From Escherichia coli (GTDB lineage Bacteria; Pseudomonadota; Gammaproteobacteria; Enterobacterales; Enterobacteriaceae): a DNA stretch of 18,303 nt. Under the pieces are notes generated by a model. That model searched no databases. It saw only the letters and a list, made by a program, of their open reading frames with translations, and was not told the DNA's origin. This document shows positions 16,720 to 16,932 of this stretch, piece by piece. A program made the translations under genes and the position numbers. The stretch lies in the NCBI RefSeq assembly GCF_003334815.1, contig NZ_QOWO01000054.1; one strand, given 5' to 3'. Positions within the stretch are counted from its first letter, which is position 1; each line of letters opens with the position of its first letter.

Positions 16720-16932
16720 ATGAATGGATTCAGAAACAGTTCACGGAACGGTCAGGTCTGGCGTTACCAGCGTGCCGGCGGGCGGGCCGTTATTCTGGAG
16801 GTCAGTGGACGCTGGATGGAAGCGGCAGAAGCATGGCGACGGGCTGCCTGCATAGCTCCCCGGACAGACTGGCAGCAGTTTGCCCGGAAAAGGGCTGAAC
16901 ACTGCCACCGGCGCTGCCGGGGAAGGGTGTAA
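16720..16932 (+). CDS. Small basic W/R-rich protein, possibly an ANR-family-like regulator; identity uncertain
   Basis: 70 aa with a strong RBS (AGAGGAGAGAGG) before the ATG at 16720. Helix-like motif GRWMEAAEAWRRAA...DWQQFARKRAEHC. GC-rich relative to its AT-rich surroundings. Confidence 0.45.
   Translation: MNGFRNSSRNGQVWRYQRAGGRAVILEVSGRWMEAAEAWRRAACIAPRTDWQQFARKRAEHCHRRCRGRV

What the first reader, a model, noticed from the sequence alone, without database searches (positions are those of the whole stretch)
16720..16932. Unassigned 70-aa W/R-rich ORF with an unusually strong ribosome-binding site
The ORF has a long purine-rich Shine-Dalgarno and encodes a basic protein with spaced tryptophans and alanines (GRWMEAAEAWRRAA...WQQFARKRAEHC), reminiscent of small ANR-type anti-activators. 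It is GC-rich in an AT-rich region. If it is a regulator, its target here is unknown.
Basis: partly seen in the sequence, partly recalled or inferred. Interest (0 to 1): 0.4.

Follow-up and report, generated by a model that had tools for sequence, protein, structure and literature searches.

The report
Known ANR-family gene on IncF plasmid
This is a real 70-codon gene of the F-type conjugative plasmid backbone that databases already label an ANR-family small regulator, and a catalogued antisense RNA overlaps its 3' end; nobody has tested what the protein binds on these plasmids.

Summary
The ORF at 16720-16932 (+) is real and under selection as a protein. It has a conserved strong Shine-Dalgarno, pN/pS of about 0.38, and translated matches in 4,876 of 72,556 PLSDB plasmids.

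NCBIfam ANR_neg_reg scores 33.5 bits against a cut-off of 32. A profile-profile match to an Aar-containing ANR set gives 98.2% probability. Six of the seven published signature residues and the conserved Cys are present. AlphaFold predicts three helices, and nearly all fold neighbours are annotated ANR.

It is not unassigned: NCBI's pipeline already names it "ANR family transcriptional regulator".

New points:
- Rfam AS-pc02 ("Antisense to pHK01_099") lies on the minus strand at 16829-17014 and overlaps the last 104 nt of the gene.
- Both hairpins flanking the gene are oriented as terminators of antisense transcription.
- In most plasmids the gene follows finO. Here finO is absent and the neighbouring hha is frameshifted.
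- No AraC/XylS gene was seen near it.

Most likely it is a small TPR-like protein-binding regulator of the H-NS or AraC-type circuit. That is inferred, not shown.

Verdict: annotation already known, function of this plasmid branch untested, modest interest.

The parts
16580..16614 (-). GC-rich hairpin (GCCTCCCT...AGGGAGGC) with its T-run on the minus strand. It is oriented as an intrinsic terminator for antisense transcription that has crossed the ANR gene. In most plasmids it sits directly after the finO stop codon.
   Evidence: Terminator scan. Alignment of 15 loci shows a hairpin at this position with different stem sequences, always preceded by an A-run on the + strand. Folding gives -17.8 kcal/mol.
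16705..16719 (+). Shine-Dalgarno region AAAGAGGAGAGAGGA of the ANR gene.
   Evidence: -9.1 kcal/mol against the 16S tail, top 1.9% of start contexts in the window. A strong site is kept in 12 homologous loci.
16720..16932 (+). ANR-family small protein gene: 70 aa, 8.3 kDa, pI 11.7, three predicted helices (4-28, 32-45, 49-69).
16829..17014 (-). AS-pc02 antisense RNA (Rfam RF02876, 'Antisense to pHK01_099'). It is complementary to the last 104 nt of the ANR coding sequence and 82 nt of the downstream spacer.
   Evidence: cmscan 181.9 bits against a gathering score of 40, E 3e-47, full-length model match. Found in 10 of the 13 related loci scanned.
16935..16973 (-). Hairpin CAGCCUUC / GAAGGCUG followed by U6 on the minus strand. 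It is a terminator-like element inside AS-pc02 and ends 3 nt from the ANR stop codon. On the + strand it forms a 3' stem-loop without a U-run.
   Evidence: RNAalifold consensus with one compensatory pair (UA to CG in L006). Alignments.

Best explanation
The ORF is a genuine protein-coding gene of the IncF (F-like) plasmid backbone. It encodes an arginine-rich branch of the ANR (AraC Negative Regulator) family, whose archetype is Aar of enteroaggregative E. coli.

Shown here:
- The gene is translated-looking, conserved and under purifying selection.
- It belongs to the ANR family by sequence profile, signature residues and predicted fold.
- A catalogued cis-antisense RNA (AS-pc02) overlaps its 3' end.
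- The two hairpins that bracket the gene are oriented to stop antisense transcription, not sense transcription.

Inferred from the family (PMC4038620, PMC4983702, PMC5570504, PMC10148876): the 8-kDa three-helix, TPR-like protein does not bind DNA as a classical repressor. It binds other regulators protein-to-protein. These are the linker or dimerisation region of AraC/XylS activators and the H-NS family, and binding alters their oligomerisation and DNA binding.

Inferred partner: the gene travels with thousands of plasmids that carry no AraC-type virulence regulator, and it usually sits in a finO-ANR-nuclease-hha cluster. The most likely partner is therefore a ubiquitous one, either host H-NS/StpA (with Hha) or host AraC-type proteins such as GadX/GadW.

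Inferred control: no intrinsic terminator is predicted on the + strand between traX/finO and the gene, so it may be read through from the tra/finO transcript. AS-pc02 may limit the mRNA by pairing with its 3' end.
For: Coding:
- Pooled pN/pS is 0.38, with 0.40 for codons 1-36 and 0.35 for codons 37-64. Pairwise dN/dS is mostly 0.04-0.58 over 10 alleles.
- A strong SD is kept despite sequence change.
- tblastn finds the protein in 4,876 PLSDB plasmids, and 4,021 of them cover at least 80% of it.
- The ORF persists in L009, where AS-pc02 is not detected.

Family:
- NF033650 scores 33.5 against a cut-off of 32.
- A reciprocal profile search reaches proteins that score 40-51 bits on the ANR model.
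- hhalign gives 98.2% probability, E 4e-14.
- A23, E27, A35, W39, R58 and C62 are invariant across the plasmid branch, intermediates, classical ANRs and Aar.
- The ungapped core has 9 of 40 identities to Aar, and they fall on signature positions. The signature is given in PMC4983702.
- AF2 mean pLDDT is 84 with three helices.
- Fold neighbours are almost all annotated ANR, with TM 0.7-0.96.
- Public records already carry the ANR name.

Antisense RNA.

Terminator orientation.

Context: the order finO-ANR-thermonuclease-hha recurs.

Fold type: the nearest solved folds are TPR and MIT protein-interaction modules, though not significantly so.
Against: - No experiment on this plasmid branch was found. 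The members of the family that were tested experimentally do not include the 'Shigella cluster 5', which may correspond to this branch.
- The HMM score is only 1.5 bits above the cut-off. Many near-identical alleles are annotated 'hypothetical protein'.
- BLASTP against Aar finds nothing, and Pfam has no match.
- The Trp whose mutation inactivates Aar (W45) is Phe here (F54).
- The protein is far more basic than Aar (net +11 against +2), which would also suit nucleic-acid binding.
- No AraC/XylS gene is adjacent, whereas characterised ANR genes lie close to theirs (PMC4038620).
- Some copies are decayed. L005 has a stop at codon 14, and L004 and L008 have altered C-termini.
- Read-through from tra and control by AS-pc02 rest on sequence only.
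Confidence: 0.6

Rival explanations
1. The protein is real but works as an arginine-rich nucleic-acid binder, acting on RNA or DNA (for example on plasmid transcripts), not as a protein-binding anti-activator. On this reading the ANR-like fold is shared ancestry only.
For: It has 15 Arg in 70 residues, net charge +11 and pI 11.7, against net +2 for Aar. No AraC partner gene is nearby. The gene sits next to finO, which encodes an RNA chaperone, and among nuclease genes.
Against: The residues that stay invariant are the family's helix-face Ala, Glu and Trp positions, not the arginines. The arginine positions vary between alleles. Classical ANRs can also be quite basic, up to net +9. The fold is TPR-like, which is typical of protein-binding modules.
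Confidence: 0.15
2. The functional element is the RNA. AS-pc02 (or the structured sense 3' region) is the thing selection maintains, and the ORF is kept open mainly as a by-product.
For: The 3' half of the ORF and the downstream spacer are much more conserved at nucleotide level than the 5' half. Against L007, about 60% of positions match in codons 1-36 and 88% in codons 37-64. The Rfam match is strong. A long hairpin is predicted within the coding 3' half.
Against: pN/pS is below 1 in both halves, including the 5' half that lies outside the RNA. A strong SD and the ATG are conserved. L009 keeps the protein (APRADWRRFARLRAERC) with different nucleotides and has no AS-pc02 match. The protein matches a protein family by profile and fold. 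Only one compensatory pair supports any RNA structure.
Confidence: 0.1
3. The gene is a drifting backbone passenger with no current function in most plasmids.
For: There are many alleles at 70-99% identity. Truncated, frameshifted and stop-containing copies exist. Purifying selection is only moderate at about 0.38. Its neighbours finO and hha are lost or broken in this very plasmid.
Against: The gene is kept intact here although finO and hha are not. Of the plasmids with a match, 82% align over at least 80% of the protein. The invariant core positions coincide with those of distant family members.
Confidence: 0.1

Closest known systems
Aar (AggR-activated regulator, orf60) of EAEC 042 and its tested relatives Cnr (ETEC), Rnr (C. 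rodentium/EPEC), and the Vibrio and Salmonella ANRs
   Same: Size below 10 kDa, three predicted helices, and signature positions A, E, A, W, A, R and C in register without gaps. Profile-profile probability is 98.2%. It is plasmid-borne in E. coli. Plasmid pAA of strain 042 carries both aar (46234-46434) and this finO-linked gene (50186-50398), 3.8 kb apart.
   Different: Core identity to Aar is only 9 of 40, and BLASTP finds nothing. F54 replaces the Trp that is essential in Aar (W45). There are extra invariant Trp residues at 32 and 51 and an invariant APR motif at 46-48. The protein is Arg-rich rather than Lys-rich and has net charge +11. It lies in the conjugation/replication backbone after finO rather than beside an AraC activator, fimbrial operon and dispersin/Aat genes. 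Binding and activity are untested.
Rfam RF02876 AS-pc02 (antisense RNA of IncFII plasmid pHK01)
   Same: Full-length match at 181.9 bits on the strand opposite the ORF. The pHK01-like allele in L007 scores 229.5 bits and sits in the same position relative to its ANR gene.
   Different: Nothing differs in kind. The window copy has a 2-nt insertion and several substitutions in the 5' part. That pHK01_099 is the ANR gene is inferred from position. The original paper (Jiang et al. 2017, FEMS Microbiol Ecol, cited from memory) was not available.
Hha/YmoA family (RmoA of R100), small plasmid-borne modulators that bind the H-NS N-terminal domain
   Same: It may work like them: a small helical protein encoded in the same IncF cluster, two genes downstream, with no DNA-binding domain of its own. 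Aar and Rnr bind H-NS (PMC5570504, PMC10148876).
   Different: There is no sequence or profile relation, since NCBIfam and Pfam gave only the ANR hit. H-NS binding is untested for this protein.
PerC family (EPEC PerC, Pch, PICI PerC-like proteins)
   Same: They have a similar small helical fold. Two PerC-annotated proteins appear among the fold neighbours at ranks 16 and 38. A PICI 'PerC-like' protein has been proposed to be an ANR (PMC11773190).
   Different: There is no Pfam PerC match even at E of 10 or less. The NCBIfam hit is to ANR only.

Membership tests
ANR (AraC Negative Regulator) family | Small protein under 10 kDa (39-80 aa) | tested here: met
   70 aa, 8.27 kDa. Criterion from PMC4038620 and PMC4983702.
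ANR (AraC Negative Regulator) family | Match to the curated family model NF033650 above its cut-off | tested here: met
   33.5 bits against a cut-off of 32, E 2.8e-8, model positions 1-51 of 54. The margin is thin. More distant relatives (P0124, P0128, P0143, P0155) score 23-31 bits, below the cut-off, and some near-identical alleles are annotated 'hypothetical protein'.
ANR (AraC Negative Regulator) family | Seven highly conserved signature residues (consensus A10, E14, A22, W26, A29, W43, R47) plus the conserved Cys | tested here: met
   A23, E27, A35, W39, A42, R58 and C62 align without gaps to Aar A14, E18, A26, W30, A33, R49 and C53. The seventh position (Aar W45) is F54 here, an aromatic substitution, and it is Trp in some relatives of the branch.
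ANR (AraC Negative Regulator) family | Three conserved alpha-helices spanning the protein | tested here: met
   AlphaFold2 predicts helices 4-28, 32-45 and 49-69 with mean pLDDT 84.2. The top Foldseek AFDB50 neighbours are annotated ANR, with TM 0.7-0.96.
ANR (AraC Negative Regulator) family | Detectable homology to experimentally characterised members | tested here: met
   hhalign of the subfamily profile against an alignment containing Aar gives 98.2% probability, E 4e-14, over 65 columns. Pairwise BLASTP alone fails.
ANR (AraC Negative Regulator) family | Gene lies close to a cognate AraC/XylS activator gene | tested here: not met
   The neighbours are traX (or finO), a thermonuclease gene, hha and DUF2726 genes. 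No AraC/XylS product is annotated in 1-50 kb or 78.7-88.4 kb of the near-identical plasmid CP099216; the rest was not fetched. This is an association reported for characterised members, not a sequence criterion.
ANR (AraC Negative Regulator) family | Binds the AraC-type partner or H-NS, oligomerises, and represses the partner's regulon | not testable with these tools
   This needs two-hybrid, pull-down or SPR assays and complementation of an aar mutant. No such data on this branch were found in the library.
ANR (AraC Negative Regulator) family | Expression activated by the partner activator (negative feedback) | not testable with these tools
   The only indirect hint is that no + strand terminator is predicted between traX and the gene, so read-through from the tra operon is possible.
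Rfam RF02876 AS-pc02 | Covariance-model match above the gathering score on the strand opposite the gene | tested here: met
   181.9 bits against 40, model positions 1-185 of 185, minus strand 16829-17014.
Rfam RF02876 AS-pc02 | Transcript actually made, with the stated ends | not testable with these tools
   The only promoter-like site found is further upstream (17097..17070). Structure support is one compensatory pair. One study detected the RNA by RT-PCR in vesicles of one STEC strain (PMC12370729).
PerC family | Match to the Pfam PerC model | tested here: not met
   There is no Pfam-A match at all, even at E of 10 or less. The only link is fold-level resemblance.

The most novel reading that the evidence does not exclude
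The finO-linked ANR is a backbone regulator of F-type plasmids that is expressed as the tail of the tra/finO transcript. It feeds back on conjugation or on plasmid cost by binding H-NS/Hha or a host AraC-type regulator, and AS-pc02 acts as its brake. That would make a supposed virulence 'anti-activator' family a general plasmid-host interface present on about 7% of sequenced plasmids. It would also mean that EAEC 042, the strain in which Aar was defined, carries a second, unrecognised ANR 3.8 kb from aar.
Probability: 0.2. Interest if true: 0.6.

Novelty: already known. Interest (0 to 1): 0.27.

Why it matters
ANR proteins are studied as virulence attenuators that sit beside AraC-type activators in enteric pathogens. 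This allele shows that a branch of the family is instead part of the IncF conjugative backbone.

- It is found in 4,876 of 72,556 PLSDB plasmids, mostly from E. coli, Klebsiella, Shigella and Salmonella.
- Judging by the sampled records (for example), these include resistance plasmids without any such activator.
- If the protein binds H-NS or host AraC-type regulators as Aar and Rnr do, it would be a widespread means for resistance and virulence plasmids to tune host gene silencing or their own transfer.
- The prototype Aar plasmid pAA also carries this paralogue. That is relevant to how aar deletion phenotypes are read.

None of this changes the classification. The gene and its antisense RNA are already in public annotation resources.

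Tried and rejected
- Pfam-A scan of the protein: no hit even at E of 10 or less.
- BLASTP against Aar: no alignment. Homology appeared only with profiles.
- PDB sequence search: only weak repeats in designed TPR and TIM proteins. PDB Foldseek: nothing below E 0.3, and the nearest folds were TPR and MIT domains. No solved ANR structure was found.
- The original pHK01 small-RNA paper could not be read, and HM355591 is not in the plasmid collection. NC_013727 turned out to be the related plasmid pEG356. The identity of pHK01_099 with the ANR gene is therefore inferred from position.
- The supplement of PMC4983702 is not held. I could not confirm that the paper's 'Shigella cluster 5' is this branch.
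- The FinO RIP-seq paper (PMC8136791) was checked for an RNA ligand at this locus, and none was mentioned in the passages returned.
- RNAalifold on 10 AS-pc02 copies: the sequences are too similar. There was one compensatory pair and the covariation term was +0.99, so the fold is neither supported nor refuted.
- A zinc-knuckle reading of HCHRRC was rejected, because only C62 is invariant while H61, H63 and C66 vary.
- A minus-strand ORF (16802-16951, 49 aa) was considered and rejected, because the substitution pattern fits the + frame.
- Literature searches linking ANR to conjugation or IncF found only a passing mention.

Full report
**1. What is in the sequence**

An ATG at 16720 opens a 70-codon frame that ends with TAA at 16930-16932. 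The product has 15 Arg, 1 Lys, 10 Ala, 4 Trp and 5 acidic residues, which gives pI 11.7 and net charge +11.

The 15 bases before the ATG read AAAGAGGAGAGAGGA. Paired with the 3' tail of 16S rRNA they give -9.1 kcal/mol, placing the site in the top 1.9% of all 1,572 possible start contexts of the window. The traI site is stronger at -12.4.

The ORF is 62% GC. The spacers on either side are 45% and 36%, and the genes downstream are 37-50%. The whole window is 59%, and the tra genes upstream are as GC-rich as the ORF.

**2. Where the window comes from**

The window is the distal end of the transfer region of an F-type plasmid. Coordinates below are converted from the annotation of plasmid CP099216:
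- traI ends at 15218.
- A DUF2726 gene lies at about 15236-15802.
- traX is at about 15799-16530.
- The ORF follows, then a thermonuclease gene at 17178-17639 and an hha homologue at 17685-17893.

CP099216 is a conjugative IncFIA/IncFII plasmid from a UK pig farm that carries K88 fimbrial genes. It matches at 99.4-100%. In that record, and in many others, the ORF is already annotated "ANR family transcriptional regulator". In others the same gene is called "hypothetical protein".

The usual gene order is traX-(alpha/beta hydrolase)-finO-ANR-thermonuclease-hha-DUF2726-repA2. In the window finO is absent. Similarity to the common arrangement starts around 16574-16582, which corresponds to the finO stop codon in those plasmids.

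**3. Is it a real gene?**

- A translated search finds the protein in 4,876 of 72,556 PLSDB plasmids: Escherichia 3,740, Klebsiella 711, Shigella 253, Salmonella 138. In 4,021 of them one segment covers at least 80% of the protein.
- The large protein database holds 204 clusters of it at E of 0.001 or less. The top cluster has 1,313 member sequences.
- In 14 loci fetched across the identity range, 11 have the full 68-70 aa frame. One Klebsiella copy has a stop at codon 14, and two have altered C-termini.
- Over 10 alleles the pooled pN/pS is 0.38. It is 0.40 for codons 1-36 and 0.35 for codons 37-64, so both halves are under purifying selection as protein.
- A strong SD is retained in all 12 homologues examined, although its sequence changes.

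**4. Family membership**

- NCBIfam gives a single hit, NF033650 ANR_neg_reg, at 33.5 bits against a curated cut-off of 32. Pfam gives nothing.
- Because the margin is thin, I tested it in other ways. A profile of 17 diverse alleles (A1) searched against 1.84 billion representative proteins returned 59 hits. These include arginine-rich intermediates and lysine-rich proteins (P0159, P0161, P0165, P0174) that score 40-51 bits on the ANR model.
- I took Aar itself from pAA of EAEC 042. BLASTP against it finds nothing. A multiple alignment nonetheless places the core without gaps and leaves A23, E27, A35, W39, R58 and C62 invariant from the window protein through to Aar.
- These are the positions that Santiago et al. 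give as the family signature (A10, E14, A22, W26, A29, W43, R47, plus a conserved Cys). Mutation of A14, E18, A26 and W45 inactivates Aar (PMC4983702; PMC4038620). Six of the seven are identical here. The seventh, Aar W45, is F54.
- hhalign of A1 against an Aar-containing alignment gives 98.2% probability, E 4e-14.
- AlphaFold2 predicts three helices with mean pLDDT 84. Nearly all of the top 50 Foldseek AFDB50 hits are annotated ANR.
- No solved structure is related. The nearest folds are TPR and MIT modules, and none is significant.

The protein is a member of the family, on a distinct arginine-rich branch.

**5.

*Antisense RNA.* Rfam RF02876, AS-pc02 ("Antisense to pHK01_099"), matches the minus strand at 16829-17014 with 181.9 bits over the full model. 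It is complementary to the last 104 nt of the coding sequence and to 82 nt downstream. It is present in 10 of the 13 related loci scanned. The best score, 229.5 bits, is in a pHK01-like allele where it holds the same position relative to the ANR gene. From memory, AS-pc02 was defined by RNA-seq of plasmid pHK01 (Jiang et al. 2017); that paper could not be opened. One later study detected it by RT-PCR in vesicles (PMC12370729).

*Terminator orientation.* Both hairpins that bracket the gene carry their T-run on the minus strand. One lies at 16590-16614 with a T7 tail. The other lies at 16942-16973 with a T6 tail that ends 3 nt from the stop codon, and it shows one compensatory change in L006. 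On the + strand neither is followed by a U-run. No + strand terminator is predicted between traX and the gene, or directly after it. This suggests substantial antisense transcription that is confined to this gene. It also leaves open read-through of the sense transcript from traX/finO.

*Uneven conservation.* The 3' half of the ORF and the spacer are far more conserved in nucleotides than the 5' half. That fits a double constraint or recombination. In L009 the protein is kept with different nucleotides and no AS-pc02 match, so the protein is the primary conserved object.

**6. How it most likely works**

This section is inference. Aar binds the central linker of AggR, blocks its dimerisation and DNA binding, and interacts with other AraC-family proteins including GadX and GadW (PMC4983702). 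Aar and Rnr also bind H-NS and change H-NS-dependent silencing (PMC5570504, PMC10148876).

The window protein keeps the helix-face residues needed for that activity and has a TPR-like fold typical of protein-binding modules. The most likely mechanism is therefore protein-to-protein binding to a regulator. The gene is a backbone gene with no AraC-type gene nearby, and it usually lies two genes from hha, whose product is an H-NS partner. I therefore favour H-NS/StpA (with or without Hha), or host AraC-type proteins, as the target. Nothing here tests binding.

Rival readings:
- An arginine-rich nucleic-acid binder, confidence 0.15.
- An RNA-centred locus, 0.10.
- A drifting passenger gene, 0.10.

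**7. Novelty and verdict**

The annotation (ANR family) and the antisense RNA are both in public resources, so the finding is already known as a classification. Three things are not in the literature I could search:
- Any functional work on this plasmid branch.
- Its status as an IncF backbone gene.
- The fact that pAA of EAEC 042 carries both aar and this paralogue 3.8 kb apart.

Interest is modest.

Noticed in passing
window 16531-16582: finO (and the alpha/beta hydrolase 'orf286' found in many relatives) is absent between traX and the ANR gene. Similarity to finO-containing plasmids resumes around 16574-16582, which corresponds to the finO stop codon in those plasmids. A plasmid without FinO would be expected to be derepressed for transfer, as F is.
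   Followed up: partly
window 17685-17893 (around 17748): The hha/rmoA homologue is split into two reading frames by a 1-nt deletion in an A-run (A6 to A5) compared with L002. The same sequence is in CP099216, where no hha is annotated. It is either a pseudogene or a homopolymer sequencing error.
   Followed up: yes
window 17081-17096: A perfect CRP-type palindrome, TGTGA-N6-TCACA, lies within TTTTGTGAAATAAATCACAAAA (minus-strand reading). It sits in the spacer between the ANR and thermonuclease genes, which is more conserved across plasmids than the ANR 5' half. The only promoter-like site in the region (minus strand 17097..17070, TTGTGA-16-TAAAAT) overlaps it.
   Followed up: no
L015:46234-46434 and L019:186-398 (NC_017627.1, pAA of EAEC 042): The plasmid on which Aar was defined is itself IncF. 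It also carries the finO-linked ANR paralogue (WP_001301409.1, 93% identical to the window protein), 3.8 kb from aar. The strain therefore has at least two ANR-family genes.
   Followed up: partly
L008:2106-2705, L012:2019-2696, L009:2142-2768 versus window 17178-17639: The slot just downstream of the ANR gene is filled by different nuclease-type genes in different plasmids: thermonuclease, PIN-domain or NYN-domain. AS-pc02 is lost in two of these variants (L008 and L009).
   Followed up: no
window ~15236-15802 (ORF call 15158-15802), and beyond 17931: A DUF2726 gene lies between traI and traX and overlaps both by a few bases. By homology with CP099216, a second DUF2726 gene starts near 17931. 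Most relatives have only the copy near repA2.
   Followed up: no
L007:1466-1678 versus window 16720-16932: The alleles are mosaic. About 60% of positions match in codons 1-36 and about 88% in codons 37-64, and the downstream spacer is highly conserved. This suggests recombination inside the gene or a much stronger nucleotide constraint where the antisense RNA lies.
   Followed up: partly
L005:1522-1731 (K. pneumoniae NZ_CP137407.1): This copy has TGA in place of Trp14 and is not annotated as a gene, while AS-pc02 still scores 209 bits there. It is an example of the RNA region persisting after the ORF is broken.
   Followed up: no
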